From Candidatus Omnitrophota bacterium (GTDB lineage Bacteria; Omnitrophota; Gorgyraeia; Zapsychrales; Fredricksoniimonadaceae), in the NCBI GenBank assembly GCA_044225175.1, contig JBGAJA010000002.1, positions 146,917-210,916 of the forward strand: a DNA stretch of 64,000 bases. The letters are read 5' to 3'. This document shows, piece by piece, positions 2,968 through 32,830 of the stretch (the stretch's first letter is position 1; each line of letters opens with the position of its first letter). The position numbers were made by a program, and so were the translations under genes. The notes under the pieces are model-generated. The model did no database searches and had not been told where the DNA came from. It saw nothing but the letters and a program-made list of their open reading frames with translations.

Positions 2968-4200
2968 CTATGTATTGTCAATTGACTTAGGAGGGTTGAC
3001 AGAAACAGCCTCTGGCCTGTTTACTTCCCCTTGAAATAATCCATAAATCACTACCAATAACAATCCGGATGGCGCTGTAAAAACGGTGTAGATTCCTAAT
3101 GAACAAATCAAATGTGCTAAAAGACACGCAAAAAGAATGTTCAGCATTTTAGTTTTAGGAGTTCGAATATATTGAACAAAAAGATGGCCAATGATAGCCA
3201 TTAAGCTTAAAAAGCCTATAATTCCCATTTCAAACAAAATTTCGAGATAATCATTGTGCACATGTTCATAAAAACGCCCTGAATCTTTGGTGTTTCCTAG
3301 GATCATGGATCCATTCATTTCAAAGAATGGTGACATTTGTGTAAAAGTCCCTAACCCAAATCCTAAAAAAGGGTTGCAGTTTCGAGATTGAAAAGCCATT
3401 TCCATATTGTTATTAGGATCCCTGTATTGAAGGTCTACTTTTCCTTGGTATATGGACTGAATTACAAATTGATAAACATTTAATCTTTCTTGAATACTGT
3501 CTTTGAGTTTATATTCAAATTTTCCCAAGAATATGGCTGTTCCTAATACAATTACACAAGCAACGATCCACAATTTCTTTTTGTTTTTGCTTGCAAGAAA
3601 TAAGCTTGCCGTTCCAAAGGCTACCCATGCAGCAGTTGTTTTGGAACACCACAAACCAAAAATCGTAAAAGGTAATGCCCAGGGAAATAATACTGCTGTA
3701 GCCGGCCCGCTATCTGCCATAAACAAAGCCAATTGATTTTTACTTCCTAGAAATCCAACATTGTCTGAATGTTCCGGGGCATTGGGATTATAGAACAAAG
3801 GGTCCATGTTAAAATATTGTAGAATAACCCAGATTCCTTGAATTAAGGCTGATAAACAAATCGCTTTTACCACCCAAACACGACTCTTTGAATCCAAAAA
3901 ACTTATTCCCCACATGGCCAGTGAACACAAATAAATTTGTAATAGACATACAATAGAGTGTGGTTGTTGCTTTGCGATAAAAACAGTTGAAAAGAGGGCT
4001 AAAAGTGTGAATATTGAAATGTATTTGTTAAAGGCCCAAAGAATTATTGAAGCTGCAATAAAAAATAGCGTTGTTAAAACAAGGTATTGGGGATACCACG
4101 GATCATCTTCAAGTACAGGTAATATCGAAGACAAAGGAACCGCGATAATGCCAAAAATAAGCAGTATAAAAAGCGGCTTTTTCAATGATATCAGGTTCAT
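2968..4200 (-). CDS. Polytopic inner-membrane protein, possibly Wzy/O-antigen ligase family
   Basis: 410 aa with about 10-12 hydrophobic helices and a large loop. The family assignment is a guess from its architecture. Confidence 0.3.
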   Translation of the reverse strand: MNLISLKKPLFILLIFGIIAVPLSSILPVLEDDPWYPQYLVLTTLFFIAASIILWAFNKYISIFTLLALFSTVFIAKQQPHSIVCLLQIYLCSLAMWGISFLDSKSRVWVVKAICLSALIQGIWVILQYFNMDPLFYNPNAPEHSDNVGFLGSKNQLALFMADSGPATAVLFPWALPFTIFGLWCSKTTAAWVAFGTASLFLASKNKKKLWIVACVIVLGTAIFLGKFEYKLKDSIQERLNVYQFVIQSIYQGKVDLQYRDPNNNMEMAFQSRNCNPFLGFGLGTFTQMSPFFEMNGSMILGNTKDSGRFYEHVHNDYLEILFEMGIIGFLSLMAIIGHLFVQYIRTPKTKMLNILFACLLAHLICSLGIYTVFTAPSGLLLVVIYGLFQGEVNRPEAVSVNPPKSIDNT

Positions 4201-6872: not shown

Positions 6873-7793
6873 TTATACCCCTTTGGGCCCTCTTATAATT
6901 TCCAAAATTCTATCTAAATCATCGAGGGTGTAGTATTCAATAATAAGCTTGCCCTTGCCCTTCTTGTCTTCAACAAGAACTTTTGTTCCAAGAACCGTGC
7001 GTAATTCATCCTCGAGATTAGTAATGTCTGGGTCTTTGGCTTTCTGGGTCTTGCTTTTATTTGGGGTTTTAGTTGATGCTTGACGGACCAATCCTTCCAC
7101 GGAACGAACAGATAAACTTTGTTCAGTGATTTGAGTGGCCATTTTTAATTGAGCTTCTTCGCTATTCAATGCCAGAAGCGCCCTCGCATGGCCCATAGAA
7201 ATCTTCTCTTGAATGATTTGATCTTGAATTTTAATGGGGAGTTTAAGTAGTCTTAGTGTGTTAGCGACAGTTGTCCGGTCTTTTCCGACTGCTTGGGCGA
7301 TTTGATCTTGGGACAAGTGGAAACTGTCTTCTAATCGTTGAAAGGCTTTAGCCTCGTCGATAACATTCAGGTCTTGCCTTTGAATGTTTTCGATTAGAGC
7401 CAATAAAAGCGTCTCACTATCCGAAACTTCTTTAATAATAGCTGGGATGACGGTGAGCCCTGCTTTCTTGGACGCTCGCAATCGACGCTCACCCATGACA
7501 ACTTCATAAATTCCTGCATCTTTGGAAGGTCGTACCATGATGGGCTGTAAAATCCCTTTTTCTTTGATGGAAGCGGTCAGCTCATTAAGGGAGTCTTCAT
7601 CATAATTTTGTCGAGGCTGAAAGGGATTGTAATGAATATTTTCAATATATAACATCTGAGGGGTCAAATTAAACATGCCTTCTAGTTCTTGGCCTCCATC
7701 CTTTTCCTGAATGTGTTCTATTTTAACTTTCGCTTTTTCCTGAGCCTGTGAAATCAGCGCTGATAAACCCTTACCTAAAGCTTTATTTTCCAT
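6873..7793 (-). CDS. parB: Chromosome partitioning protein ParB/Spo0J
   Basis: ParB box 'VVMGERRLRAS', HTH, and origin-proximal position next to parA. Confidence 0.85.
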   Translation of the reverse strand: MENKALGKGLSALISQAQEKAKVKIEHIQEKDGGQELEGMFNLTPQMLYIENIHYNPFQPRQNYDEDSLNELTASIKEKGILQPIMVRPSKDAGIYEVVMGERRLRASKKAGLTVIPAIIKEVSDSETLLLALIENIQRQDLNVIDEAKAFQRLEDSFHLSQDQIAQAVGKDRTTVANTLRLLKLPIKIQDQIIQEKISMGHARALLALNSEEAQLKMATQITEQSLSVRSVEGLVRQASTKTPNKSKTQKAKDPDITNLEDELRTVLGTKVLVEDKKGKGKLIIEYYTLDDLDRILEIIRGPKGV

Positions 7794-7822
7794 GGGCGTC
7801 TCCCCTCAATTAACATGATTAT

Positions 7823-8620
7823 CTAATTGCTTTTGTGATCCCCTAAAACACTTGGCTTTTGTTCTATATTTGCCAAAAATTCTTTAGCCATTTCTCTGTA
7901 TTTAACCGCACCCGCTGAGCTTGGATCATAAATATGAATAGGCTTACCAAAACTAGGGGCTTCGCTTAAACGAATGTTTCTGGGAATTACCGATTGATAA
8001 ACTTTTTCATTGAAAAAGTTCTTAATCTCTTTAATAACTTCATTGGTTAAGTTGGTTCTGTAATCCGCCATGGTCATTAAGACGCCTTCTATTTCCAGAC
8101 TGGAATTCAAACTATCTTTGACAAGATTTATCGTGTTTAATAAACCACTTACTCCTTCCAAAGCATAAAATTCACATTGAATAGGTATAATAATGCTGTC
8201 TGCTGCTACAAGTGTATTTAATGTTAAAAGTCCCAGGGATGGTGGTGAGTCAATAAAAACAAAATCAAAATTTTCTTTAACAGAGTCAAGTGCTTTTTTA
8301 AGCCTCGTTTCACGAGACATGGCACCCACTAGCTCTATTTCTGCTCCAGTTAGATTGATATTACATGGCGCTATACTCAAATTCGCATAAGCTGTTTGAA
8401 GAATGGTATCGATGATATTATTTTTATGAATAAGCACGTCATAAATGGATGTTTTAATTTCGTTTTTGTTAATCCCCACCCCGCTAGTAGCATTGCCTTG
8501 GGGATCCATATCAACGATTAAAACTCTCTTTCCCATTTCAGCTAGAACTGCGGAAAGATTTACAGAGGTCGTGGTTTTACCAGTTCCCCCTTTTTGATTA
8601 CATATAGCAATTATTTTCAT
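7823..8620 (-). CDS. parA: Chromosome partitioning ATPase ParA/Soj
   Basis: Deviant Walker A 'KGGTGKTT' at the N-terminus, as in the ParA/MinD family. Confidence 0.85.
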   Translation of the reverse strand: MKIIAICNQKGGTGKTTTSVNLSAVLAEMGKRVLIVDMDPQGNATSGVGINKNEIKTSIYDVLIHKNNIIDTILQTAYANLSIAPCNINLTGAEIELVGAMSRETRLKKALDSVKENFDFVFIDSPPSLGLLTLNTLVAADSIIIPIQCEFYALEGVSGLLNTINLVKDSLNSSLEIEGVLMTMADYRTNLTNEVIKEIKNFFNEKVYQSVIPRNIRLSEAPSFGKPIHIYDPSSAGAVKYREMAKEFLANIEQKPSVLGDHKSN

Positions 8621-8633
8621 ATTACCTCCCTAT

Positions 8634-9119
8634 CTAGCAAGCTCCTGCAAATAATCCAACTCCAAAACAAGCACTTTGATTATTTGATCCGTCACCACTC
8701 AGAACTAGAATATCTTCAGCATTAGTAACTGATGTTGCGGCTATTGTCCATCCCTGACTGTCAGTGTCTATATTATACTCGTTTCCAGACATTGTGATGT
8801 ATTCATCAAAAATTTGGTATTTGAAATTAGGACTTCCTGGTGTTATATAATCCCAACACTGTGTGGGAGGTCCTCCCGTGAAGTTGCTAGAACAATGCTC
8901 CTGAGAAGAAAAACAGGCGTTTTCTGTCCCCACATGCGCTCTTAAACACGGGACTAACCATGACTTGATGGATGCTGCTGTCAACATTGCTTCTGCACTT
9001 TGACTTCTTTTAATCCAGCTAAAATACGCTGGTATAGCTAAAGATGCGAGCAATCCAAGAATGATTAGCACAACAATTAATTCAATGAGTGTGAAGCCTT
9101 TTGCTTTATTTTTTTTCAT
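8634..9119 (-). CDS. Type IV pilin / pseudopilin (class III prepilin signal)
   Basis: N-terminus KG|FTLIELIVVLIILGLLASLAIP (G-FTLIE motif). The C-terminal part is Cys-rich. Confidence 0.7.
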   Translation of the reverse strand: MKKNKAKGFTLIELIVVLIILGLLASLAIPAYFSWIKRSQSAEAMLTAASIKSWLVPCLRAHVGTENACFSSQEHCSSNFTGGPPTQCWDYITPGSPNFKYQIFDEYITMSGNEYNIDTDSQGWTIAATSVTNAEDILVLSGDGSNNQSACFGVGLFAGAC

Positions 9120-9136
9120 GTCCTTAAAAAATGTTG

Positions 9137-9583
9137 TTAGTCTTTGTCGTACTGTGTTTTATTTTTAGTATAAAAATCCACTAGTACATTCACACGTTTT
9201 AAAAAATCTTCTGCTAGCTCATCCCCTGGACGACTGGTAATAAGTCTTTTAGTCTTTCCTTCAATCACATCATCTAATTCTTTGATAATTCTTCCAAAAG
9301 GTCCCACAATACGATGTGAAATTACAAATGAGAAAATCATTGATAATAAAATGATGAAACAAAGTAAAAAAATAATTGTACCTGTAAAGGTGTAAACAAG
9401 ATTTGTTATTGAGCTGACGGAGCTATGAAAAACAGCCTGACTAATGATAGGGTTTCCTATAAAAACAATGGTGATGAATGCTAGAAAAATGAGTGTTGAG
9501 GGTAAAAAACTAAGTAAAACTATTTTATCTTGATACTTGTTAGCGGTTGAAAAAACATTTCTTTTTTTTGATTTATTTGTCAT
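9137..9583 (-). CDS. Small 2-TM membrane protein with a stand-alone HAMP-like domain (paralog A)
   Basis: Two hydrophobic helices, then 'HRIVGPFGRIIKELDDVIEGKTKRLITSRPGDELAEDFLKRVNVL', which matches the HAMP consensus (P-L/F, xGDLxxRI, DEIGxLAxxFNxM). Confidence 0.5.
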   Translation of the reverse strand: MTNKSKKRNVFSTANKYQDKIVLLSFLPSTLIFLAFITIVFIGNPIISQAVFHSSVSSITNLVYTFTGTIIFLLCFIILLSMIFSFVISHRIVGPFGRIIKELDDVIEGKTKRLITSRPGDELAEDFLKRVNVLVDFYTKNKTQYDKD

Positions 9584-9628
9584 TCTAACCCCTTGTCTAT
9601 ATATCGTATTTCTATAACTTTTGCTATT

Positions 9629-10063
9629 CTAAGACTTATGTTTTACATAAAATTCAACTAAAATATTCACTCTTTTAAGAAGAGATGCCGCTAAATCATC
9701 CCCTGGACGACTGGTAATAAGTTTTTTGGATTTTCCCGCGATAATATCATCTAGTTCTTTATTGATTCTTCCAAAAGGTCCTACGATATGATGCGAGATT
9801 ACAAAAGATATCATGATTGATACAAGCATGATTAAACATAATAAGAATATAATTATGCCCGTAAATACGTATACCATCTTTGTCATCGACGGTATGGATG
9901 TATGGAAAATGGCTTTGGTAATGACAGGGTTTCCTATGAATACAATCCCTATGAAAGCAAAAAATATTAACATTGAAGGAAGAAAGCTTAATAGAATAAT
10001 TTTATTTTGATATGGATTTGCTGTTAAAAAAATATTACGTGCTGGTTTTTTAGGCGTTGTCAT
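9629..10063 (-). CDS. Small 2-TM membrane protein with a stand-alone HAMP-like domain (paralog B, tandem duplicate)
   Basis: Co-linear with 9137..9583 over its whole length; the same HAMP-like motif is present. Confidence 0.5.
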   Translation of the reverse strand: MTTPKKPARNIFLTANPYQNKIILLSFLPSMLIFFAFIGIVFIGNPVITKAIFHTSIPSMTKMVYVFTGIIIFLLCLIMLVSIMISFVISHHIVGPFGRINKELDDIIAGKSKKLITSRPGDDLAASLLKRVNILVEFYVKHKS

Positions 10064-10093
10064 CTGTATCTCCTTTATTTAATCTCTTGACCA

Positions 10094-10588
10094 TCAATTA
10101 TATTCCCCTTTATATATACCCCAACCCAACAAAGTGTATGTCCCATCAAAATTGCGACAAAGGCTTATTCCGCTTCTGTTTCGATACTGTGTTTTACCGT
10201 CGGGGGAACACACCGGCTCTTCCCCACCTTCGTCTGAAATTGTGAGATCATGATCTGTTCTAATTGCGAAAATTTCATAGGAAATTTGCTGCGAAGAAAT
10301 GGTGATGTTCTTTCCCTCACAACACTTAAAATGAATTGTGTTTGCTTCTTGAACACTAGAATTGAATATGCAGTTATCAATGCTGTTGATGTCATTCTTA
10401 GCCATCATACAAAGTTCAATTTTACTTTTAACCGTCTTTAATTGATGAACTGCTTCTGCCCAATTAAGACTTTCAGACCATTTGATGTACCATTGGATTG
10501 AAAAATAACCCAGGTACCCTGCTACAATTAAGGCTAAAATGATATCGAATAAAGAAAGTCCTCTGTTATTTTTTTTTGTAATATACAA
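10094..10588 (-). CDS. Pilin-like protein with a divergent prepilin N-terminus
   Basis: N-terminus RG|LSLFDIILALIVAGYLGYF, which resembles a class III signal with D at +5. It has several Cys. Confidence 0.45.
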   Translation of the reverse strand: MYITKKNNRGLSLFDIILALIVAGYLGYFSIQWYIKWSESLNWAEAVHQLKTVKSKIELCMMAKNDINSIDNCIFNSSVQEANTIHFKCCEGKNITISSQQISYEIFAIRTDHDLTISDEGGEEPVCSPDGKTQYRNRSGISLCRNFDGTYTLLGWGIYKGEYN

Positions 10589-10729
10589 ATAAGACTCCCT
10601 TTAGGGACACAATTAATAAAGATAATTAGTGTTTATAATATAACATTACACTGTCTTTGCAATATTTTTCAAAATTATTTTTGTTTTCCACGTGGAAAGC
10701 TCTGGTGTTGGAGAAACTAGTTCTGAGGA

Positions 10730-10954
10730 TTATTTCTTAATTACTTTTATTTTAGCTTGCTTTGAGCCTCTCATGCCAAAAAGGCCCTTTTTCTCTTCAC
10801 AAACAACCTTAATTTTCATTTCTTCGCGATCTACACCTAATATCTTTTCAGCTTTTTTTATAGCTTCTTCAGTGGTGTATCCTTCAAATTCCGTTTCTTC
10901 ATTGTCACTAGGGATTGTGCCAAATAACATACCTGTTTCCTTACTTCGCATCAT
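10730..10954 (-). CDS. jag: Jag/KhpB N-terminal-domain protein (small)
   Basis: Position immediately downstream of yidC and the 'EAIKKAEKILGV' Jag_N-like motif. The start is placed at the internal Met, because the longer ORF overlaps yidC. Confidence 0.45.
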   Translation of the reverse strand: MMRSKETGMLFGTIPSDNEETEFEGYTTEEAIKKAEKILGVDREEMKIKVVCEEKKGLFGMRGSKQAKIKVIKK

Positions 10955-12548
10955 TTTCACGTGAAACTGTTTTTTGATTCCCCATTTTCCATTGGGTCCA
11001 AGTAGATAATCCATAGAAGACTGTAAAATAAAGAGATAGTCCGCTAGCAAATTTATAAAACATAAAGCCAATGAAAAATGGAAAAATGTATTTCATCATC
11101 TTCTGCTGCATGGCTTGTGTCTCGTCGGTAATCACCATATTTTTGGCAGTAAGTGTTTGTTGCAAGAACATGACGCCTGCCATTGTAATAGGCAAAATAT
11201 TAAATTCATTTCCTAAAAAGGGTATATTAAATGGCAGGATAAAAAGCCTGTCTGGTTGAGCTAAATCCTTAATCCATAAAAAGCTTTTGCCTTGAAAGTA
11301 ATAAGCGCGCCACAGAACCTGGTAAAGCGCAATAAAGATAGGCATTTGCAAAAGAAATGGCAGGCATCCGGCTAAAGGATTAACCCCTTCCCTTCTATAC
11401 AAATCAACCATTTCCGTGTTAAGCTTTGTGGGGTCGCCTTTATACCTTTTCTGAAGGGCAGCTATTTTAGGTTGTACCATTTGCATTTTCTTCATGGACA
11501 TCATGCTTTTGTAAGTCAAAGGATATGTAAGTCCATAAATCAATATGCTTACTAAAATAATGGACAGCCCCCAGCTGTGGCAAATAGAATGTAGAACAGG
11601 AACAGTATAATATATCGCCTTTCCTAAGATATCTAGTATCCACCAATTACTAAAAGCTACGATCTTTTCAAATCCCCTATTAAATCCTTTTAACCAACCA
11701 ATATTTTGATCCCCTGCAACTAGAGTAAAGTCATAGCTAAACGTTTCTCCGGGACCAATTCCCTTCTTTGGCTTGATATTGGCTGAAAGCTGACTTTCGT
11801 TAAGTACTTCATTTTCATAGGCTTTTGACTCAAATTCTGGTTTTATAAGCAACATATGGAAATGATCCCTATAACCTACCCAAGTCGCCTCTTTATTTTC
11901 CAATTTATTATCTTTAGAAGTAAATTTACTGGATGTACCTTTGCGAATAATCTTTTTATTTTCTTCCAGAATGGAAAGTTCATCTAACATGGAATTGCGT
12001 CCCATATGCTCTTCTGGACTGGGAACATTTACTTTTAATGTTTTAAACTCTATTTCTTCCAGTCTGGAAGAAATGTTTGTCATTTTAATATTTGCTTTAA
12101 TGGATTTATCTTTATTTACAGTAAATGTTTTAACTATTTTCCATTGTAAATCTTGATATCCATAAGAAATAGCTTCACTGTTTTGAAATATTGTCTGAAA
12201 TGGCACTTCTTCCAGTCCTTTGATGACTAAAAGATCTGTTGCAGGAAAAAGATAGGAACTGCCGTTGAATTCTATTTTGTGGAGCGTACCACCCATGTTT
12301 GTAAAATTTAAATTCAGTTCAGGGGTTTTTAATACTGTTTTTACTTCTTTTTTTTCGACTTGAGTGGTTTTTTGTGATTTTTCAGAGGTGACTAGAGAAG
12401 GGATTGTTGTTTTTTCTGTAACTGTATTGTTTTGAACGACTTGTGCGTTTTTAATCTTTTCTTTTTCTTTTGGAACTATAAAAAAACTTTGATATCCTAC
12501 CAAAACAAGGAACGATAAAGCCATTGCAATGAAGAAATTTCTATCCAT
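10941..12548 (-). CDS. yidC: Membrane protein insertase YidC
   Basis: 535 aa with a large periplasmic domain, then the conserved 'QKRYKGDPxKLNxEMxxLYRxxGVNPLxGCLPxLLQMPIFIALY' core. Confidence 0.9.
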   Translation of the reverse strand: MDRNFFIAMALSFLVLVGYQSFFIVPKEKEKIKNAQVVQNNTVTEKTTIPSLVTSEKSQKTTQVEKKEVKTVLKTPELNLNFTNMGGTLHKIEFNGSSYLFPATDLLVIKGLEEVPFQTIFQNSEAISYGYQDLQWKIVKTFTVNKDKSIKANIKMTNISSRLEEIEFKTLKVNVPSPEEHMGRNSMLDELSILEENKKIIRKGTSSKFTSKDNKLENKEATWVGYRDHFHMLLIKPEFESKAYENEVLNESQLSANIKPKKGIGPGETFSYDFTLVAGDQNIGWLKGFNRGFEKIVAFSNWWILDILGKAIYYTVPVLHSICHSWGLSIILVSILIYGLTYPLTYKSMMSMKKMQMVQPKIAALQKRYKGDPTKLNTEMVDLYRREGVNPLAGCLPFLLQMPIFIALYQVLWRAYYFQGKSFLWIKDLAQPDRLFILPFNIPFLGNEFNILPITMAGVMFLQQTLTAKNMVITDETQAMQQKMMKYIFPFFIGFMFYKFASGLSLYFTVFYGLSTWTQWKMGNQKTVSRENDAK

Positions 12549-24810: not shown

Positions 24811-25635
24811 ATGGCTATCGAAAATCAAAAACAAATCATTCTAATTGGAATTGCCGTTGTCGCTGGTATTGGGGCTGCGGTTTTAATTGGCAATTGGAAG
24901 ACCCAAGAAATCAATCAAAAAACACAAGAGTTGCACGATCAATACGAACAACAACAAAAACAAATGGCTGCTGAAATTCAAAAAAGCAGTGAACAGCAAG
25001 TAGCAGCAGTCAGAGAAGAGCTTAACCAAGTCCGTCAACAGCAGCAGGAAGCAATTGAACAGGCCATGAAATCTGCAAAAGAAGCAGAAGCACAAAAGGG
25101 AGCAAGGCTTTCAAACACTCTTTTAACTGCTAAGACTCCTGGTGGTAAAAGAGCTGTAACAGTCATGGTGGATTCATTGAATGCTGTTGGGGGGTTGCTC
25201 AATGCAGGGGATTATGTTGATGTGATTGCTCATCTTGATGTTCCCGATAATGCATCAGACAAGAAAAAGACTTTAACAGCCATGGTTTTTCAAGACCTTC
25301 AGGTGTTGGCCATCAACACTAATTTGGATCAACCTGGAAATTATGATCAACAACAAGGCGCTCCATTTTTAAAAGTAACATTCGCGGTTGATCCACAAGA
25401 AGCAGGCCTTCTAGCTTTTGCCAATAAAAATGGTAAGTTAGAACTAGCGCTTCGTCCTTCCAACGACAACGATAAACAAACAGTCAAAAGCTCCACATGG
25501 AGTACTTTAGCTGAGTATGTTTTACAAAATCAAGGGTCTTCTCTTGATCTTCCAGGGATGGAAGCAGCTTCCGAAAAGACAGAAACTACTAATAAACCGT
25601 ACATACAAATTTTTAGAGGCGGTAAGGAGCTTTAA
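24811..25635 (+). CDS. cpaB: Flp pilus assembly protein CpaB/RcpC-like
   Basis: N-terminal TM helix, coiled/Q-rich linker, and a C-terminal SAF-like domain. It sits directly upstream of the secretin. Confidence 0.5.
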   Translation: MAIENQKQIILIGIAVVAGIGAAVLIGNWKTQEINQKTQELHDQYEQQQKQMAAEIQKSSEQQVAAVREELNQVRQQQQEAIEQAMKSAKEAEAQKGARLSNTLLTAKTPGGKRAVTVMVDSLNAVGGLLNAGDYVDVIAHLDVPDNASDKKKTLTAMVFQDLQVLAINTNLDQPGNYDQQQGAPFLKVTFAVDPQEAGLLAFANKNGKLELALRPSNDNDKQTVKSSTWSTLAEYVLQNQGSSLDLPGMEAASEKTETTNKPYIQIFRGGKEL

Positions 25636-25638
25636 TTC

Positions 25639-27606
25639 ATGAAAAAACATCTAAATAAAAGTGCAAGTATTTTGGTCGCAACAGCTTTTATTCTTTGCCA
25701 AAATCTTCCTTTGTTAGCTCTAGCTCAAGAAGACATGTCTACCAATGCAGTTTCTGAAGATGAGCAAACACCTCAAGTAGAAAAAACAGAGCATATTAAT
25801 TTAGTTATAGGAGATGTTCAGTCCATTGAAACAAGCAATCTCACCAGAGTGGCTGTGACCAGTCCAGAGATTGTAGATATTTCTGATGCAAAATCCGACA
25901 AAGTTTTTGTAGTAGGCAAAAAGGCAGGACAAACAGAAGTTTTTATTTGGGATGATAATGGTAAACGAAGCATAAGTGTAGGCGTTGCCAGTGAAAATCT
26001 AGATGTTTTAACTTCACGTATAGAAGAAGTCATATCTAAGGCCCAGATCAAAGGAATTGTTGTTGAAAAGAATTTGTATGAAGGTAAGGTCATTCTCTCT
26101 GGTGCAGCCACCAAAGAGGATAAAGACATTCTTGATAGGATCATGGATCCCTACAGCGAGAAAATCATTAATCTCGTTAAAAGAGCTGTGAACGATGATT
26201 TAATCCAAATTGATTGCCAAGTGACTGAGTTAAGTCAAACACTAGTCAAACAATTGGGGATTAATTGGAGCAATGCTACAGGGTCTTCCAGTTCAACGTC
26301 TTCCTCAAATAATACCAATACCGTAAATTTACAACCTACGTATCAAGAAACACTTCCCACATCTAATGGTAAACCAGAAGACTGGTTTAAGATTGGAAAC
26401 TTTAATCGTACAACGGCATTGCAGGCCACCGTAGATGCTTTGATTACGGAAGGAAAGGGACGAATTTTATCTAAACCACGTCTAGTTGTTCTAAGTGGAA
26501 AAGAAGCAAGTTTCTTAGTTGGTGGGCAAGTCCCCATCCGCACAACGACATTTAATTCAACCAATAGTTCTTCTGGTGGGGCAGGAACAAGTCAGGAAAA
26601 TGTGACCTACAAGCAATACGGGGTCAACATGACAATCACACCAACCATCCGTGAAGGCAAGGTGGACATTGTTCTTAATGTACAAATCAATGATATTGAT
26701 AAATCGACTTCTGACTCTCAAGGGGACGTTGGTTTTATCTCTCGTGAAGCATCCACCCATTTATTTCTTGATGACAAGCAGACGATTATTTTAGCTGGAT
26801 TTATTAAACATTCCGATGGTCGTACTGTTAACCGAGTGCCTTTTTTAAGCAAAATTCCTGTTGTGGGAATGTTCTTTAGAAATGTGACCAACGGTAATCC
26901 AGATTCAGATACAGAAATGGTTATTTCTCTGACACCAACCATTTTAAAATCAAAGAAGATCGCCACAGAACAGACAGTGTTGCCTAGTAAACGAACAAAG
27001 AGTTTTGTTAAAGAAGTAGACACCAATTATGAAAAAGAAACAATTGATGGCCAACAATTGATTGAACCAAAGGCTGAAGAACCAAAGGCGCAAGAAAAAC
27101 CAGCTGCGGTTATAACTGCTACACCTCCAGTAGAACCTAAACAAAACTTTGGACCGCACAATGTCTCAGTAGAACCTAAAGCTACGGATACAAAGAAAGC
27201 CGAAGTAAGCGCTCCAGTTGCAGATGTTAAACCTATCGAAGAAAAACCTGTACAAATTATCAATCAACCACAGGATCCTTTGACAAGCTATGTCCGTTCC
27301 GTTCAAATGAGAATTTCACAGAAAATCACATATCCTTTTGAAGCTCTCCAAAATAATCAAGAAGGAACTGTGAAGCTTAGACTACGCATTCTTAAAGATG
27401 GATCTTTAGCAGATTGTGATCTTTTAGAGTCTTCCGGGAAAGATATTTTTGACAGGGATGCTTTGAATACCGCAAAAATAGTAGCTCCTTTTCAGGCTTT
27501 TCCAGAGAACTTGCATCAAGAAGATTTGATTTTGACAATTCCTATCGTCTATAATCAGCGAACAGAAGTTACGAATAATACACAAGCAGTCATGGCTTCT
27601 TATTAG
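25639..27606 (+). CDS. cpaC: Tad/Flp secretin (CpaC/RcpA family) with a C-terminal Pro-rich linker and TonB-C-like domain
   Basis: Signal peptide and a pilus-secretin N-domain. Secretin core 'LSKPRLVVLSGKEASFLVGGQVPI', 'VPFLSKIPVVGMFFRN', 'MVISLTPTIL'. The extra C-terminal 'EPKAEEPKAQEKP...' linker is followed by 'YPFEALQNNQEGTVKLRLRILKDGSL...SSG...AL', a TonB_C signature. Confidence 0.8.
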   Translation: MKKHLNKSASILVATAFILCQNLPLLALAQEDMSTNAVSEDEQTPQVEKTEHINLVIGDVQSIETSNLTRVAVTSPEIVDISDAKSDKVFVVGKKAGQTEVFIWDDNGKRSISVGVASENLDVLTSRIEEVISKAQIKGIVVEKNLYEGKVILSGAATKEDKDILDRIMDPYSEKIINLVKRAVNDDLIQIDCQVTELSQTLVKQLGINWSNATGSSSSTSSSNNTNTVNLQPTYQETLPTSNGKPEDWFKIGNFNRTTALQATVDALITEGKGRILSKPRLVVLSGKEASFLVGGQVPIRTTTFNSTNSSSGGAGTSQENVTYKQYGVNMTITPTIREGKVDIVLNVQINDIDKSTSDSQGDVGFISREASTHLFLDDKQTIILAGFIKHSDGRTVNRVPFLSKIPVVGMFFRNVTNGNPDSDTEMVISLTPTILKSKKIATEQTVLPSKRTKSFVKEVDTNYEKETIDGQQLIEPKAEEPKAQEKPAAVITATPPVEPKQNFGPHNVSVEPKATDTKKAEVSAPVADVKPIEEKPVQIINQPQDPLTSYVRSVQMRISQKITYPFEALQNNQEGTVKLRLRILKDGSLADCDLLESSGKDIFDRDALNTAKIVAPFQAFPENLHQEDLILTIPIVYNQRTEVTNNTQAVMASY

Positions 27607-27658
27607 AGAAGAATTGTAAAAGCATAGATATATGCAAAACTAGACTGATGACAAAACT

Positions 27659-27703
27659 AAAAACCGTGATACAATATTTTCTATTGTCCACGGTTTTTAG
27701 TTT
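27659..27703 (+). terminator. Rho-independent terminator after the secretin gene
   Basis: 10-bp stem aaaaaccgtg/cacggttttt with a 20-nt loop, followed by tttttagttttt. Confidence 0.5.
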
Positions 27704-27770
27704 TTGCAGTATCCTCCATTCTTCAGAGTCTCCGAGAAGAAAAGGCAATATCTAACATGAAAGATTAATT

Positions 27771-29930
27771 ATGTTGAGCAAAGTCATTACGGTTTTCAGC
27801 AATAAAGGTGGAGTTGGAAAAACTTTCGTTGCGGTCAACGTTGCAGCTGCTTTAACACTTAAAGGAAAGAAGGTGTTAGTTGTAGACTTAGATCTTCAGG
27901 CGGGTCAAAACATGGCCCGTATGTTTAACTTAACTCCTGCCCACTCTCTCGTCGATATTCTAGAAGCAATTAAAACCGACGACCATGAAATGGTCAAAAA
28001 ATTAGTTACAGCTCATTCTAGCGGACTTGATTTCCTTCCTGCTGTTATGAATCTTCGACAAGCTGGACGCATTACAGCTGACAATATACGGCATTTCTTT
28101 AAAATGGTTAGCTCCTTATATGATTATGTCATTGTGGATGCTGACAAAATGTTTACAGAAACGCTCATCAGTGTTTTAGACAATACAAATTTAATTCTTT
28201 TAGTCACAACTCCAGATATTCTAGCTGTTACCCAAGCGAAGAACAGCATCGATATTTTACAAAGTTTGCACTTTCCTTTGAAGATGTCCAGATTGATTCT
28301 AAATCGTGCGGAGAGTCGAGGGGGAGTTGCATGGCAGGAAGTCCAATCAGCCCTGCCCGCTGAAATATTCTCTTTGATCCCTTCTGATGGTAAAACGGTA
28401 GGATTGGCTCTCAACAGGGGCATTCCTTGCGTGATTGATAGTCCTCGCACAAGAGTTTCCGAAGTATTTTTTGAGATGGCAGACAAGCTCCAAGCTCACG
28501 ACATCTATGTAGCTTCCTCAGATGTGGTGAAAGTCCGAGCCAGCGATACGATTGCTGCTAAAGGAAATGAATTTTGGGAGAAATTTGGAATCGGTCTAGG
28601 AGGAGCTCCACAGGTTAAGGATGCTTTTAGAAAAGAAGAAGACGAAATTATCCGACTCAAAAAAGCCATCCATCACAAACTTGTTGATCGAATGAACTTG
28701 AAAAAGATTTCAACAGAAACGATTACAGACATTCAACAAGCGGCTAATATTCGAAAAGCCGCAGAAAAGATCGTAACAGATTTGCTGGCTGAAACATCTG
28801 GTTCCATCCTCTCATCCCATGAACAGCGTTCACGTTTAGTCCGTGAAATTGTTAATGAAGCCGTTGGGTTGGGTCCTTTAGAAGATTTTCTTGCTGATGG
28901 GGACATAACAGACATCATGGTGAATAATAAAGATGAAATATTCGTCGAGAAAAGCGGAAAAATACTTTTAACAAACAAACACTTTATTTCCAATGAGCAA
29001 GTTCGAGCAACCATCGATAGAATTATTGCTCCTTTAGGAAGACGTATTGATGAATCCACCCCCATGGTGGATGCTCGCCTTCCCGATGGTTCGCGTATCA
29101 ATGCCATTATTCCTCCGTTGTCTTTAAATGGTCCAATGATCACTATCCGTAAATTCTCCCAAGAAAGATATACGATTGATGACATGCTCAATAAATTTAA
29201 CTCCCTCTCTGCCCCCATGGCCGAGTTCTTAAATGTTTGTGTTATTGGGCGAAAGAACATGATTATCTCCGGCGGAACAGGCGCAGGAAAGACAACTCTT
29301 TTAAACATTGTTTCTCAATTCATCCCTGATAACGAACGCATCATTACAATTGAAGATGCTGCAGAGTTACGCTTGTCTAAAAGTCACTGGGCCCGTTTAG
29401 AATCCAGGCCTGTTAACATTGAAGGCAAGGGAAAGATCACGATCAGAGATCTTTTTACCAACACTCTTCGTATGAGACCAGATCGCATTATTATTGGGGA
29501 ATGCCGTGGACCAGAAGTTTTAGACATGTTGCAAGCGATGAATACAGGCCACGACGGGTCTTTAACCACATTGCATGCGAATTCACCAAGAGATGTTCTT
29601 TCGCGTCTTTCTTCGATGGTCTTGTTATCGGGAATCGAATTACCTATTAGAGCCGTTTATGAAATGACAGCTTCCGCCATCAACATTATTGTCCAAATTT
29701 CTAGATTCTCCGACGGCACACGTAAAATAACTGCAATCTCTGAACTCACTGGAAAAATGTTGGATACCATCCCTGAAATGAAAGACATTTTTGTCTTTAA
29801 GCATGCGGGCATTAATGCAGATGGTGTAGTTCTTGGAGAATATGTTCCAACAGGGTATGTCCCTAAATGCTACGATGATTTTATAACTCGCGGGCTTCCT
29901 CTTAACAAAGAGATATTCAATCCTTCATAA
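27771..29930 (+). CDS. Fused TadZ/CpaE-like (MinD/ParA-type) plus TadA/CpaF secretion ATPase, 719 aa
   Basis: N-terminal deviant Walker A 'SNKGGVGKTFVAVN' (MinD-like, no receiver domain). The C-terminal half carries CpaF motifs: Walker A 'GGTGAGKTTLLN', 'IITIEDAAEL', His-box 'MNTGHDGSLTTLHAN'. Confidence 0.8.
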   Translation: MLSKVITVFSNKGGVGKTFVAVNVAAALTLKGKKVLVVDLDLQAGQNMARMFNLTPAHSLVDILEAIKTDDHEMVKKLVTAHSSGLDFLPAVMNLRQAGRITADNIRHFFKMVSSLYDYVIVDADKMFTETLISVLDNTNLILLVTTPDILAVTQAKNSIDILQSLHFPLKMSRLILNRAESRGGVAWQEVQSALPAEIFSLIPSDGKTVGLALNRGIPCVIDSPRTRVSEVFFEMADKLQAHDIYVASSDVVKVRASDTIAAKGNEFWEKFGIGLGGAPQVKDAFRKEEDEIIRLKKAIHHKLVDRMNLKKISTETITDIQQAANIRKAAEKIVTDLLAETSGSILSSHEQRSRLVREIVNEAVGLGPLEDFLADGDITDIMVNNKDEIFVEKSGKILLTNKHFISNEQVRATIDRIIAPLGRRIDESTPMVDARLPDGSRINAIIPPLSLNGPMITIRKFSQERYTIDDMLNKFNSLSAPMAEFLNVCVIGRKNMIISGGTGAGKTTLLNIVSQFIPDNERIITIEDAAELRLSKSHWARLESRPVNIEGKGKITIRDLFTNTLRMRPDRIIIGECRGPEVLDMLQAMNTGHDGSLTTLHANSPRDVLSRLSSMVLLSGIELPIRAVYEMTASAINIIVQISRFSDGTRKITAISELTGKMLDTIPEMKDIFVFKHAGINADGVVLGEYVPTGYVPKCYDDFITRGLPLNKEIFNPS

Positions 29931-29953
29931 CCCCTTATGGGTGATGATTAGCC

Positions 29954-30304
29954 ATGTCCATTGTCAATCTGACCAAAGAAACAACATTAGCCAGTTATGT
30001 TGAAATTGCTGACAACCCTTTAAAAAGAATGACGGGACTATTAGGAAGAGTTTCGTTAGAGCAGGGGTATGCGCTTGTGATTACCAACTGCAGTAGCATA
30101 CACATGCTTTTTATGAAGTTTTCGATTGATGTTATTTTTGTCGACCAGAACAAAAGAGTGGTTGGTCTTGTTAAGAACATACAACCATTCAAATTCTCTC
30201 CTGTTTTCTGGAAATCTTCTTGCGCCATTGAATTGCCCGCTGGTACAATTGAGTCAACAAAGACGCAAATTGCAGACCAACTATCTGTTTGTACATCATG
30301 GTAA
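29954..30304 (+). CDS. DUF192-family small protein
   Basis: 'MTGLLGR...IHMLFMKFSIDVIFVD...AIELPAGT' matches the DUF192/COG1430 pattern as I recall it. Confidence 0.45.
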   Translation: MSIVNLTKETTLASYVEIADNPLKRMTGLLGRVSLEQGYALVITNCSSIHMLFMKFSIDVIFVDQNKRVVGLVKNIQPFKFSPVFWKSSCAIELPAGTIESTKTQIADQLSVCTSW

Positions 30305-30326
30305 AGGAAACCTTCTTCATTGACAT

Positions 30327-31730
30327 ATGGGTGTTGTTTATAAATTAACTCCAGAGATCAGTGCTTTTATTATTGAGCATAAACAGAGCAATCCAGCGAC
30401 GACATGTCAGGCATTGTCAGATATTGTTTTAGCTAAATTTGACCAGCACGTTTCAAAATCTTCGGTTCACGAACTTCTTAAACAAGCTCATGTCATTACT
30501 CCCAGGGTTCGCAAAGTTAAAGAAAAATTTCAGATTCCGACACACAAGAAACAACAAATTTCAAAAGCATTAGCTCCTTTTGTAGCCATTGGATCATCAA
30601 CACCTCCAAACATTTCCTTGGTGCAAACAGTCCCTACAAAAGTTGCTCCCCCTGAGATAATAGAAGAGATCATCCCAGAAGAACAACCCACTCAACAACC
30701 TAAAGAATACATATCTGGAAAAGGCGATATTTTTATTCAAAGTGCCCTATTTGATTTATCTAACAAACCCATTGTTGGGATCAGCGATTTCAACCAGATG
30801 GATTCCGTTGATCAAAATAAAATAAAAATGGAATGGGAGTATTTAACACAGCTAGTGTATGCCATTAAAATTGAGTTAGAAAGCGGATATGTTTTTTTCA
30901 TTGATCCCAGATTTCAGGGAATTTATGATTACAATCCCAATACACCAACATTGGCAGCTCCCATAGAACGAGCGGCCTATGAAGTGGCAGACTACATTTT
31001 AAATAATATTAAGCCTATAATTATTCGCAAATTTGATGCAAGTTGTTCAAATGATTTAACTTATGATATTTTTTCCGCTTTCCAAAACATCTCTCTTAAG
31101 AAGATTATCAAAATTGCGCTAATAGGGGCCAAAGATGAACAAATTGTTGAATTTAATCATCCCCTTGGAATTCAAAGAAATTTTATCATAGCAGTTGATT
31201 CACAAAACACTCAGTACCAATGGTTTATGAATAATTCAGCTGTGGAAACTACATGGAATTTGCCAATGAAGGATAATTCAACCTCTCCCACCGTAAGGCT
31301 CCTTAAAAAGTCTAACAAAATCATCATAACTAACTTAGAATCAATGACTTATGCAGAATCTGTTAAAATGTATGAGGAAAGACATCCAGGAGAAAGTCTT
31401 CAGTTAAGTGTAATTGAGAATCAAAAATCAGAACAGAGTACAGATTTCATTGTTTGGTTTAAAAATAAGCTTCAACAACGAGCATTAATGTTTTTTCCCC
31501 AGTCTTTTTCACGACAGGCGCTTGAAGATGCGACCCGCTTAGAGGGTTATGAACAAAAGATCGTCGACAAGAAGAAAAATTTGATAGAAATCAAAGTGCA
31601 TTTGAGGGTTTCTTCCAATCATCCTCAAATACAACAATTTCAAAGGGCTGCTGAAAATATTAACAGTCTAAATATTAGCGATTTTCAGGGAATGAAAAGA
31701 ACCGTAAAGTTAGATATTAGCAGCGAATAG
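30327..31730 (+). CDS. Hypothetical protein with an N-terminal HTH-like region
   Basis: 467 aa with no TM. The N-terminus 'LTPEISAFIIEHKQSNPATTCQALSDIVLAKFDQHVSKSSVHELLK' looks like a transposase-type HTH. The rest is unrecognizable. Confidence 0.35.
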   Translation: MGVVYKLTPEISAFIIEHKQSNPATTCQALSDIVLAKFDQHVSKSSVHELLKQAHVITPRVRKVKEKFQIPTHKKQQISKALAPFVAIGSSTPPNISLVQTVPTKVAPPEIIEEIIPEEQPTQQPKEYISGKGDIFIQSALFDLSNKPIVGISDFNQMDSVDQNKIKMEWEYLTQLVYAIKIELESGYVFFIDPRFQGIYDYNPNTPTLAAPIERAAYEVADYILNNIKPIIIRKFDASCSNDLTYDIFSAFQNISLKKIIKIALIGAKDEQIVEFNHPLGIQRNFIIAVDSQNTQYQWFMNNSAVETTWNLPMKDNSTSPTVRLLKKSNKIIITNLESMTYAESVKMYEERHPGESLQLSVIENQKSEQSTDFIVWFKNKLQQRALMFFPQSFSRQALEDATRLEGYEQKIVDKKKNLIEIKVHLRVSSNHPQIQQFQRAAENINSLNISDFQGMKRTVKLDISSE

Positions 31731-31773
31731 AGAAAGGGTTTTCTTGAAAACAGTCTGGGGTGGTTGACAGCCT

Positions 31774-31808
31774 ATATAATATATGGCATACTTTAGCTAA
31801 GAAAACAT
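31774..31808 (+). promoter_or_regulatory. Candidate promoter (TTGACA - 17 nt - CATACT) upstream of the first flp gene
   Basis: Sequence match only. Confidence 0.3.
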
Positions 31809-31943
31809 AAACATGACTTCGTTTTCATGTCCTTCTTCATGAAGGGCTTCACATAAATAATGACCCAATTCCACGTGACTTTATTTGGGATGAAATAAAG
31901 TCAGGGTCACAATCGCCTTTATGAAGCATCATAAGGAGCAACA

Positions 31944-32099: not shown

Positions 32100-32117
32100 A
32101 ACTAAGAGAGGGTGTCT

Positions 32118-32390: not shown

Positions 32391-32424
32391 TTAATGACCA
32401 AGAAATTTCCTAACAGGAGGATTT

Positions 32425-32778: not shown

Positions 32779-32830
32779 GCAAACAATTGTAACTGTACAC
32801 ATAGTTTAAGACATATTTTAAGGAGGATGT

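What the first reader, a model, noticed from the sequence alone, without database searches (positions are those of the whole stretch)
8634..10588. Pilin / 2TM-HAMP / 2TM-HAMP / pilin-like gene cluster adjacent to parA
A class-III-signal pilin (8634..9119) and a divergent pilin-like gene (10094..10588) bracket two tandem, clearly paralogous 144-148-aa proteins. Each of those consists only of two TM helices plus a HAMP-like linker ('HRIVGPFGRIxKELDDxIxGKxKxLITSRPGDxLAxxxLKRVNxLVxFY') with no output domain.

Stand-alone HAMP modules next to pilins suggest a minimal signalling or assembly-control device for a type IV pilus or T2SS-like filament. They could also be degraded chemoreceptor remnants.
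Basis: partly seen in the sequence, partly recalled or inferred. Interest (0 to 1): 0.55.

Follow-up and report, generated by a model that had tools for sequence, protein, structure and literature searches.

The report
Pilin genes paired with mini-HAMP proteins
Two pilin genes flank two copies of a small, unannotated inner-membrane protein (two membrane helices plus a HAMP-like helical hairpin and nothing else), and close relatives of this protein always sit next to a pilin gene, so it is probably a dedicated membrane partner of the pilin rather than a broken chemoreceptor.

Summary
On the minus strand, 10588 to 8634, lie a divergent prepilin (164 aa, Asp at +5), two paralogous 144/148-aa proteins (68% identical), a canonical prepilin (161 aa) and then parA. 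The gaps are short, each gene has a ribosome-binding site, and there is no terminator.

The small proteins are predicted N-in/C-in. They have two TM helices, an uncharged loop of about 22 aa, and a cytoplasmic helix, 13-residue connector and helix.

They belong to a family absent from Pfam and NCBIfam, with at least 428 clusters at 50% identity. All 150 hits that were listed are short (62-272 aa, mostly 130-155) and none has an output domain. dN/dS is about 0.06-0.18, so they are not receptor remnants.

HAMP membership is plausible but unproven:
- The Pfam HAMP model does not detect the family.
- The layout and heptad pattern fit HAMP.
- hhalign against seven E. coli HAMPs gives P of about 0.01.
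- Members weakly match the TM2-HAMP segments of MCPs, kinases, a cyclase and a phosphatase (best E 1e-4 to 6e-6).

In every independent locus of the close clade (about ten, in at least six unrelated neighbourhoods) and in one distant member, the gene lies beside or near a prepilin gene. PilZ genes adjoin twice. Other distant clades lack pilins.

Most likely this is a pilin-cognate intramembrane adaptor or sensor. That mechanism is inferred, not shown.

The parts
10094..10588 (-). Divergent type-IV-pilin-like gene (164 aa; leader MYITKKNNRG, then LSLFD: Leu at +1 and Asp at +5 instead of Phe and Glu)
   Evidence: ORF. It is 28% identical to the 161-aa pilin, E 1e-8. It aligns with partner pilins of other loci and is the counterpart of L001 6983-7444, which also has Asp at +5. 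It has a weak hit to the same PHROG as the canonical pilin. There is no Pfam N_methyl hit.
9629..10063 (-). 2TM + HAMP-like stand-alone protein, paralogue A (144 aa)
   Evidence: It matches the family HMM at E 7.5e-46. No Pfam or NCBIfam family matches above cut-off.
9137..9583 (-). 2TM + HAMP-like stand-alone protein, paralogue B (148 aa)
   Evidence: AF2 models with pLDDT 75 and 79 show H16-43/53, H56-107, a loop at 108-121 and H122-145.
9164..9313 (-). HAMP-like module of paralogue B (residues about 91-140): AS1-like helix 92-108, Gly109, connector 109-121 with an always-hydrophobic residue 115 and near-invariant R118/D121, and AS2-like helix 122-138 with invariant N132
   Evidence: Column conservation and hydrophobic periodicity. 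hhalign against E. coli HAMPs. NCBIfam colinear matches.
9314..9523 (-). Membrane part of paralogue B: TM1 (residues about 21-43), uncharged periplasmic loop (about 44-65) and TM2 (about 66-90)
   Evidence: Hydropathy and charge distribution. The TM residues are strongly conserved in the close clade.
8634..9119 (-). Canonical type IV (class III signal) prepilin, 161 aa, 17 bp downstream of paralogue B and 13 bp upstream of parA
   Evidence: Pfam N_methyl E 9e-9; TIGR02532; matches to the GspG and PilA N-termini; PHROG pilin families.
7823..8620 (-). parA. This is context rather than part of the module: it is co-oriented, lies 13 bp after the pilin, and no terminator lies between them.
   Evidence: The syntenic locus L001 also ends its cluster at parA.

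Best explanation
The region is a pilin-plus-partner module present twice: pilin-like164, 2TM144, 2TM148, pilin161. It is inserted between jag/yidC and parAB at the replication origin and is probably co-transcribed with parAB.

Each 2TM protein is an inner-membrane protein with both ends in the cytoplasm. It has a periplasmic loop too short to be a sensor domain, and a cytoplasmic helix-connector-helix module laid out like a HAMP domain, so it probably forms a dimeric four-helix bundle.

I propose that it acts inside the membrane on its cognate pilin. Its conserved TM helices would contact the pilin's hydrophobic N-terminal helix while the pilin waits in the inner membrane. The HAMP-like bundle would report or relay that contact to a cytoplasmic partner, for example a PilZ-type protein or the assembly machinery. 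Alternatively, the protein may simply hold or deliver the pilin, thereby setting the pilin pool or its entry into the filament.

The logic resembles intramembrane sensing of PilA by PilS, and BceS/LiaS-type 2TM-HAMP input modules, but without a kinase.

Shown: the genes are real, paralogous and under selection; the family is stand-alone; the predicted topology; the conserved pairing with prepilin genes.

Inferred: the HAMP fold and dimerisation, physical contact with the pilin, and any regulatory or assembly effect.
For: (1) The family is real and stand-alone. There are 428 representative clusters at E<=1e-3 and 153 at <=1e-10. The 150 listed are 62-272 aa, mostly 130-155 aa matched end to end, and none has an output domain. 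dN/dS is 0.06-0.18.

(2) Pairing with prepilins holds across unrelated neighbourhoods:
- window and L001, at the origin region;
- L004/L020, 2TM-pilin-2TM-pilin beside isoprenoid and Mo-cofactor genes;
- L007, L019, L022 and L021;
- L010/L011, pilin457-2TM-PilZ-x-PilZ;
- L023, pilin681-2TM-ABC;
- L024/L025 and L026, inside a MoxR/Bat operon;
- L027, a member at about 26% identity, PilZ-x-2TM-pilin.
Numbers of 2TM genes and pilin genes roughly match within a locus.

(3) Topology and layout. The protein is N-in/C-in with a short uncharged loop. The helix-connector-helix has the lengths and heptad pattern of HAMP.

(4) Remote similarity to TM2-HAMP of sensors with different outputs. Of 125 members, 31 match LiaS, 29 PorY, 28 CtpM MCP, 14 DgcN/YfiN, 11 BaeS and 10 Tar; WalK gives the best E, 6.4e-6. 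The alignments run colinearly to the end of the protein. hhalign gives P of about 0.01, and 2 of 300 shuffles reach the score.

(5) TM residues are very strongly conserved in the close clade, as expected for a helix-helix contact surface.
Against: - No direct evidence of interaction exists.
- Pfam HAMP does not detect the family. PDB profile searches and Foldseek give nothing significant.
- A monomer AF2 model cannot show a four-helix bundle.
- Distant clades of the same family are not next to pilins: L008; L012; L028 beside a hybrid kinase; and L009/L031 beside a conserved 166-196-aa protein, with flhA-flhF-flhG downstream in L009. So pilin partnership is a clade property, not a family property.
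- In L001 the gene order leaves no pilin directly after the second 2TM gene.
- In L021 an opposite-strand glycosylase gene lies between the pair.
- No T4aP machinery (PilB/C/D/M-Q) lies in the window. Only a Tad system with its own Flp-type pilins is present.
Confidence: 0.45

Rival explanations
1. It is a structural or assembly accessory of the filament machine rather than a sensor. This would be a small inner-membrane factor that helps extract, prime or load its cognate pilin. Functional analogues are TfpY/FimB-like pilin accessory proteins, or M. xanthus PilG, the 'accessory factor' of the PilGHI ABC system encoded directly after pilA. The helical hairpin would then serve only for oligomerisation.
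For: The gene sits next to the pilin gene, as tfpY does (PMC11841053). L023 has the order pilin, 2TM, ABC ATPase, ABC-2 permease, which matches the pilA-pilG-pilH-pilI operon of M. xanthus (PMC3546991, PMC3724824). 2TM and pilin genes occur in roughly equal numbers.
Against: TfpY-like proteins have three TM helices and a periplasmic globular domain and are about 235 aa (PMC11841053), whereas this protein puts its only soluble domain in the cytoplasm. Only one of about 13 loci has an adjacent ABC transporter. Homology to PilG could not be tested because no sequence was available.
Confidence: 0.25
2. It is a general-purpose small membrane protein family whose link to pilins is only genomic. The pair would travel together as an insertion cassette or share a promoter without acting on each other.
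For: Distant clades have other neighbours. The pair appears as an insertion in otherwise conserved operons, namely the Bat operon and the origin region.
Against: The pairing persists across members down to about 26% identity (L027), across at least six unrelated neighbourhoods, and through rearrangements of order (pilin-2TM, 2TM-pilin and 2TM-2TM). Hitch-hiking does not explain that well.
Confidence: 0.15
3. The cytoplasmic module is not a HAMP but a family-specific ligand- or partner-binding hairpin. The near-invariant polar residues (R98, E102, D104, R118-x-x-D121, R130, N132) would form a binding site, for instance for c-di-GMP or for a PilZ protein.
For: Invariant charged residues are unusual for generic HAMPs, which are defined mainly by hydrophobic heptads. 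PilZ genes adjoin the gene in two independent loci. Pfam HAMP does not match.
Against: The pattern R-x-x-D/E-hydrophobic at the connector/AS2 junction, and the Asn in the AS2 helix, also occur in canonical HAMPs (the alignment of E. coli HAMPs). There is no evidence for nucleotide binding. This reading is compatible with a HAMP fold rather than exclusive of it.
Confidence: 0.1
4. They are degraded remnants of chemoreceptors or histidine kinases.
For: There are weak sequence matches to the TM2-HAMP parts of MCPs and kinases.
Against: At least 428 clusters exist, and all listed hits are short with full-length matches and no downstream kinase or MCP sequence. dN/dS is 0.06-0.18. The N-terminal NKYQ motif and both TMs are conserved. 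The next gene starts 17-45 bp later.
Confidence: 0.02

Closest known systems
Af1503 of Archaeoglobus fulgidus (prototype HAMP; a membrane protein that ends in a HAMP with no output domain)
   Same: It is a transmembrane protein whose cytoplasmic part is only a HAMP-type helix-connector-helix with no kinase, MCP or cyclase domain behind it (PMC3585426).
   Different: No detectable sequence relationship was found: a PDB profile search with the family, which includes 2L7H/2ASW, gives no hit at E<=10. The present family adds a conserved cytoplasmic N-terminal NKYQ motif and, in one clade, a fixed pilin neighbour.
2TM-HAMP input modules of intramembrane-sensing histidine kinases (LiaS, BceS type) and other TM-HAMP sensors (BaeS, WalK, PorY, MCPs, DgcN/YfiN)
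   Same: They share two TM helices, a minimal extracytoplasmic loop and a HAMP directly after TM2. They are the best (weak) sequence matches, and the matches are colinear over TM2 plus the C-terminal module. By established knowledge, such kinases sense through a partner membrane protein.
   Different: There is no DHp/CA, MCP, GGDEF or PP2C output. All scores lie far below the family cut-offs, so this is resemblance, not membership.
PilS-PilA intramembrane pilin sensing in Pseudomonas aeruginosa (Kilmury and Burrows 2016; from my own knowledge, not read here)
   Same: The proposed logic is the same: a membrane protein reads the inner-membrane pilin pool through the pilin's N-terminal helix.
   Different: PilS has six TM helices and a kinase and acts through PilR. 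No homology was found and no response regulator is nearby.
TfpY/TfpX/TfpZ/FimB-like pilin accessory proteins
   Same: They are small membrane proteins encoded next to the major pilin gene, they are thought to interact with pilins, and they are needed for optimal assembly (PMC11841053).
   Different: They have three TM helices plus a periplasmic beta-rich domain, are about 235 aa, and occur in Pseudomonadota (PMC11841053). Here there are two TMs plus a cytoplasmic helical hairpin in about 145 aa. No sequence match was found.
Myxococcus xanthus PilG (accessory factor of the PilGHI ABC system, operon pilA-pilG-pilH-pilI)
   Same: The gene order pilin, small accessory gene, ABC ATPase, ABC-2 permease is reproduced in L023 (PMC3546991).
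   Different: Homology was not tested. Only one locus has the ABC genes adjacent.

Membership tests
HAMP domain (Pfam PF00672) | Match to the Pfam HAMP profile at or near the gathering threshold | tested here: not met
   There was no HAMP hit at E<=10 for either window protein. HAMP was not among the 25 families most often matched by the 125 full-length members at E<=1. Only 2 of 101 isolated C-terminal modules hit HAMP, best E 0.011.
HAMP domain (Pfam PF00672) | Two amphipathic helices of about 16 residues with heptad periodicity, joined by a connector of about 13-14 residues that starts at a Gly and holds a conserved hydrophobic residue; placed directly after TM2 in the cytoplasm | tested here: met
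   AF2 shows TM2 continuing to residue 107, a loop at 108-121 and a helix at 122-145. Hydrophobic columns fall at 92/93, 96, 99/100, 103 and 106/107; then G109 and I115 (100% hydrophobic); then 123/124, 127/128, 131, 134/135 and 138. The N-in/C-in topology follows from the charge distribution.
HAMP domain (Pfam PF00672) | Profile-level sequence similarity to bona fide HAMP domains | tested here: inconclusive
   hhalign against Tsr, Tar, Tap, EnvZ, CpxA, NarX and PhoQ HAMPs gives P 0.008-0.014 and probability 1-5%, in the expected register. Two of 300 column shuffles reach the score. HMMER with the family profile against the same seven proteins is not significant. Many members give weak, colinear matches to the TM2-HAMP of MCPs, kinases, a cyclase and a phosphatase (best E 6.4e-6). 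The hydrophobic TM2 may contribute to those scores.
HAMP domain (Pfam PF00672) | Parallel four-helix bundle formed by a dimer | not testable with these tools
Type IV pilin (class III signal peptide, N_methyl) | Short basic leader, Gly at -1, Phe/Met/Leu at +1, Glu at +5, then about 20 hydrophobic residues; match to N_methyl / TIGR02532 | tested here: met
   For 8634-9119: KAKG|FTLIELIVVLIILG, with Pfam N_methyl E 9e-9 (34.9 bits against a cut-off of 21.2) and TIGR02532 31.1 bits against 16.3.
Type IV pilin (class III signal peptide, N_methyl) | The same features in the second gene, 10094-10588 | tested here: inconclusive
   The sequence RG|LSLFDIILALIVAG has Gly at -1 and a hydrophobic helix, but Asp at +5, and it has no N_methyl hit. 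It is homologous to the canonical pilin (E 1e-8), and its counterpart in L001 keeps Asp at +5. It is a pilin homologue; whether it is processed and assembled is unknown.
Type IV pilin (class III signal peptide, N_methyl) | Cleavage by a prepilin peptidase and polymerisation by a T4P/T2SS machine | not testable with these tools
   No Peptidase_A24 or PilB/C/M-Q genes were found among the window ORFs scanned. Only a Tad system is present. The rest of the genome could not be read.
TfpY/FimB-like pilin accessory proteins | Three N-terminal TM helices followed by a periplasmic beta-rich C-terminal domain, about 235-245 aa | tested here: not met
   The protein has two TM helices and a cytoplasmic all-helical C-terminus in 144-148 aa. 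The family description comes from PMC11841053.
Truncated MCP or histidine kinase (remnant) | Relatives with an intact output domain, variable truncation points, relaxed selection, or leftover coding sequence downstream | tested here: not met
   The 150 best of 428 family hits are all short, most with end-to-end matches. dN/dS is 0.06-0.18. The downstream gaps are 17-45 bp.
M. xanthus PilG (PilGHI accessory factor) | Sequence homology to MXAN_5782 and adjacency to PilH/PilI-type ABC genes | not tested
ABC genes are adjacent only in L023.

The most novel reading that the evidence does not exclude
This is a previously undescribed class of output-less, minimal TM-HAMP-like proteins that serve as cognate inner-membrane receptors for individual type IV pilins, with one partner per pilin. 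They would couple the state of the membrane pilin pool to cytoplasmic effectors such as PilZ proteins purely through protein-protein contacts. The same scaffold would be re-used in other phyla with other partners, for example near the flagellar export gate genes. That would make it a general 'kinase-less intramembrane sensing' module.
Probability: 0.25. Interest if true: 0.7.

Novelty: new variant of a known kind. Interest (0 to 1): 0.5.

Why it matters
Type IV pilins wait in the inner membrane before assembly, and little is known about who handles them there outside a few model proteobacteria. Here a small family with no Pfam or NCBIfam model is paired with pilin genes across many uncultured lineages. 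The window is probably from an Omnitrophota-like bacterium, a group in which pili are thought to mediate attachment to host or prey cells. The pairing gives a concrete, testable candidate for a pilin-specific membrane partner. It would also be a natural example of a HAMP-type module that works without any enzymatic output, which is useful for understanding what HAMP bundles can do on their own.

Tried and rejected
- Pfam, NCBIfam, PADLOC and PHROGs scans of the four proteins gave nothing for the 2TM proteins beyond weak TM or TM-HAMP matches.
- Pfam scans of 125 family members and of 101 isolated C-terminal modules showed HAMP essentially undetected.
- PDB profile searches with the whole family and with the C-terminal module returned no HAMP structure.
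- HMMER with the family C-terminal profile against seven E. coli HAMP proteins was not significant. The best stretch fell inside the HAMP only for Tsr and Tap, and a secondary stretch did so for PhoQ.
- Scans of genome contigs and metagenome contigs with family patterns yielded only 3 and 4 loci. The 125-member alignment was too diverse for pattern scanning.
- Assigning orthologues between the window's and L001's paralogues by identity was ambiguous.
- No source gives any family member a name other than 'hypothetical protein'.
- Literature searches for stand-alone or orphan HAMP proteins linked to pilins found nothing.
- The idea that the module is a defence system or a phage element was rejected because nothing matched.
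- The idea that these are receptor remnants was rejected.
Full report
**What is there.** The window region 8634-10588 carries four co-oriented minus-strand genes. In order of transcription they are:
- a pilin-like gene (10588-10094, 164 aa);
- a 144-aa protein (10063-9629);
- a 148-aa protein (9583-9137);
- a pilin (9119-8634, 161 aa).

parA follows after 13 bp. Upstream lie a 65-75-aa Jag_N-only gene, yidC and yidD, and then the divergent dnaA-dnaN. The cluster therefore sits at the replication origin, and the cumulative GC skew turns at about 12-14 kb. The gaps are 30, 45, 17 and 13 bp. Each gene has a Shine-Dalgarno-like sequence, and no terminator-like hairpin occurs in 7700-11200. Co-transcription with parAB is therefore likely, though this is inference.

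**The pilins.** The 161-aa protein has a textbook class III signal (KAKG|FTLIELIVV). It passes Pfam N_methyl (E 9e-9) and TIGR02532. The 164-aa protein (RG|LSLFDIILAL) fails those profiles and has Asp, not Glu, at +5. Even so, it is a homologue of the first pilin (28% identity, E 1e-8). It also belongs to the pilin subfamily found next to 2TM genes in other loci, with a shared C-terminal LC..G....G.G.Y.G.Y motif. Its counterpart in locus L001 keeps Asp at +5.

**The two small proteins.** They are 68% identical (E 8e-75).
- Hydropathy and charge give a K/R-rich N-terminus, TM1 at about 21-43, an uncharged loop of about 22 residues, TM2 at about 66-90, and a charged C-terminal 55 residues. That indicates an N-in/C-in topology.
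- Two AF2 models (pLDDT 75 and 79) show TM2 running on as a helix to residue 107, a loop at 108-121, and a last helix at 122-145.
- They are the only members of their family in the window.

**The family.**
- A first search found 19 close relatives, none with a Pfam domain or a name.
- An exhaustive profile search of 1.84 billion representatives found 428 clusters at E<=1e-3 and 153 at <=1e-10. The 150 listed are 62-272 aa, mostly 130-155 aa matched from end to end, and none carries an output domain.
- The family signature is an N-terminal cytoplasmic R..F..N[KR][YF]Q..I motif, two TMs with a variable loop, and S..LVG[PA]F.RI[IL]RELD[ED].I.G..K..I..R..D.LA.ELLKR[IV]N.LI. Within it, N132 is invariant and Q18, G94, R98, E102, D104, R118, D121 and R130 are nearly so.
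- dN/dS among paralogues and orthologues is 0.06-0.18, although dS is saturated.
- These are functional stand-alone genes, not receptor remnants. No source names any member beyond 'hypothetical protein'.

**Is the C-terminal module a HAMP? Evidence against:**
- Pfam HAMP gives no hit for the window proteins at E<=10.
- It is not among the families recurrently matched by 125 members.
- It hits only 2 of 101 isolated C-terminal modules (best E 0.011).
- PDB profile searches and Foldseek find nothing significant.

**Evidence for:**
- The geometry fits. AS1 spans 92-108, Gly109 ends it, a 13-residue connector holds an always-hydrophobic position 115, and AS2 spans 122-138. Both helices show a clean 7-residue hydrophobic periodicity.
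- hhalign of the family module against an alignment of seven real E. coli HAMPs (Tsr, Tar, Tap, EnvZ, CpxA, NarX, PhoQ) aligns Pro/Gly, Gly, the acidic AS2 cap and the Asn in the expected register. It gives P 0.008-0.014, and only 2 of 300 column-shuffled controls reach the score.
- When 125 members are scanned against NCBIfam, the recurrent weak hits are almost all TM-HAMP sensors of different output classes: LiaS 31 members, PorY kinase 29 (best 1.5e-5), CtpM MCP 28, DgcN/YfiN 14, BaeS 11, Tar 10, SiaA phosphatase 4, and WalK (6.4e-6).
- For distant members these alignments run colinearly from TM2 to the very end of the protein, onto the HAMP part of both an MCP and a kinase.

My reading is that this is a divergent HAMP or HAMP-like module, with probability about 0.65. 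Membership remains unproven.

**Genomic context.** This is the strongest result. In the clade at 45% identity or more to the window proteins, every independent locus that could be read has a prepilin gene beside or near the 2TM gene, while the surrounding genes differ:
- Window: pilin-2TM-2TM-pilin at the origin.
- L001: the same place, but the order is pilin, Cys-rich secreted protein, pilin(D5), 2TM, 2TM, parA.
- L004/L020: 2TM-pilin363-2TM-pilin391, beside ispH/ispG and molybdopterin genes.
- L007, L019 and L022: 2TM then pilin, overlapping or 8 bp apart.
- L021: 2TM, an opposite-strand glycosylase gene, then the pilin.
- L010/L011: pilin457-2TM-PilZ-x-PilZ.
- L023: pilin681 (TSP1 repeats)-2TM-ABC ATPase-ABC-2 permease.
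- L024/L025 and L026: the pair inserted, in either order, into a MoxR-DUF58-BatA-D operon.

A member only about 26% identical (L027) shows PilZ-x-2TM-pilin197.

Several partner pilins are long and carry Cys-rich or TSP1-type modules, suggesting adhesive filaments.

Other distant clades have no pilin nearby:
- L008 and L012.
- L028, beside a hybrid kinase.
- L009 and L031, where the gene follows a conserved 166-196-aa protein. In L009 it also precedes flhA-flhF-flhG-fliA-cheY-cheZ.

The pilin link is thus a property of a large clade, not of the whole family.

**Pilus machinery.**
- The window holds a complete-looking Tad system at about 24.8-42 kb. It comprises RcpC/CpaB, a secretin with a C-terminal TonB_C domain, a TadZ-CpaF fusion ATPase, at least seven Flp-type prepilins (G|QSTIEY...), TadB and TadC.
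- No PilB/C/D/M-Q or prepilin peptidase was found among the ORFs scanned.
- The GFTLIE-type pilins of the finding differ from the Flp-type substrates of Tad.
- Relatives' records are titled 'uncultured Planctomycetales bacterium'.
- The window also has Tad genes 11-29 kb past dnaA and a giant ORF of at least 6,820 aa. This matches published descriptions of Omnitrophota (Velamenicoccia), in which nearly all genomes also encode T4aP (PMC10066038). A T4aP machine elsewhere in this genome is therefore plausible but was not checked.

**Mechanism.** I propose that each 2TM protein is a pilin-cognate intramembrane adaptor or sensor. Its conserved TM helices would contact the pilin's N-terminal helix in the inner membrane. 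The HAMP-like bundle, formed by a homodimer or by a heterodimer of the two paralogues, would relay this contact to cytoplasmic partners, or would control retention or delivery of the pilin.
- The analogy is to PilS sensing PilA within the membrane (my own knowledge), and to the 2TM-HAMP input modules of intramembrane-sensing kinases, which are also the best weak matches.
- Precedent for a membrane protein ending in a HAMP without output is Af1503 (PMC3585426).

The main rival is a purely assembly-related accessory role. It is analogous, but not homologous, to TfpY/FimB-like proteins, which have three TMs and a periplasmic domain (PMC11841053). It may also relate to M. xanthus PilG, since the pilA-pilG-pilH-pilI order is mirrored in L023 (PMC3546991, PMC3724824). 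Homology to PilG could not be tested.

**Novelty and verdict.** The family is not covered by Pfam (2025 copy) or NCBIfam (2026), and none of my literature searches found a description of stand-alone HAMP-like proteins coupled to pilins.
- It is best rated a new variant of a known kind: a TM-HAMP-type module, output-less, pilin-coupled.
The pilin link is strongly supported, the HAMP label weakly, the remnant idea is refuted, and the function is inferred.
- Interest is moderate (0.5). This is a real, conserved and testable association, but the mechanism is unproven and the HAMP assignment is not settled.

Noticed in passing
window 24811-42062 (+): A complete-looking Tad/Flp pilus locus with unusual fusions. 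It holds RcpC/CpaB (24811-25635), a secretin carrying a C-terminal TonB_C domain (25639-27606), a single 719-aa TadZ-like ParA/MinD ATPase fused to CpaF/T2SSE (27771-29930), DUF192, TadB and TadC (40296-41153, 41157-42062), and three large proteins without any Pfam match (30327-31730, 34546-36171, 36403-39807).
   Followed up: partly
window 31944-34539 and 39785-40243 (+): A run of at least seven Flp/TadE-type prepilin paralogues of 51-152 aa, all with the G|Q(S/T)xxEY motif. They are distinct from the GFTLIE-type pilins of the finding.
   Followed up: partly
window 43540 to beyond 64000 (+): A giant open reading frame of at least 6,820 codons that runs off the end of the window. Its N-terminal part contains a Peptidase_C39 domain (residues 225-345). 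This is reminiscent of the giant ORFs described in Omnitrophota.
   Followed up: partly
window about 10730-10954 (-); L001 5758-5955: The jag gene downstream of yidC is reduced to the Jag_N domain only (about 65-75 aa, with no KH or R3H domains). The same short form is conserved in the syntenic relative, so it is not a local pseudogene.
   Followed up: no
window 2968-4200 (-): A 410-aa polytopic protein with a Wzy_C (O-antigen ligase) domain lies about 4.4 kb downstream of the pilin cluster. PglL/PilO-type pilin O-glycosyltransferases carry this domain, so it may modify pilins. This was not examined.
   Followed up: no
window 42252-42935 (+): An IS200-like Y1 transposase gene lies between the Tad locus and the giant ORF. 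A Y1_Tnp-like gene (faint hit) is also present near the module in L004 (783-1298).
   Followed up: no
L004 6798-7889 and 8422-9603; L010 4584-5957; L023 4857-6902: The pilins paired with 2TM genes in other lineages are very long (363-681 aa). They have Gly/Ser-rich linkers and repeated Cys-rich or thrombospondin-type-1 modules, suggesting adhesin-tipped or adhesin-decorated pilins. L001 (6548-6934) and L024 (1358-1939) carry separate small Cys-rich secreted proteins in or near the cluster.
   Followed up: no
L009 377-1472; L031 5690-6875: In a clade with proteobacterial-style neighbours (cheZ is present), the 2TM family gene is always preceded by a conserved 166-196-aa protein (...YPNAR.KPRTSYGCGFS...SKGYEVVERLHY). 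In L009 it lies directly upstream of flhA-flhF-flhG-fliA-cheY-cheZ. This suggests a different partner and perhaps a link to flagellar genes.
   Followed up: partly
L010 6536-7502; L027 314-637: Small single-domain PilZ proteins adjoin the 2TM gene in two loci whose 2TM proteins are only distantly related to each other. This hints at a c-di-GMP connection.
   Followed up: no
L023 4857-9116: The gene order pilin, 2TM, ABC ATPase, ABC-2 permease mirrors the Myxococcus xanthus pilA-pilG-pilH-pilI operon. Whether PilG belongs to this family is untested.
   Followed up: partly
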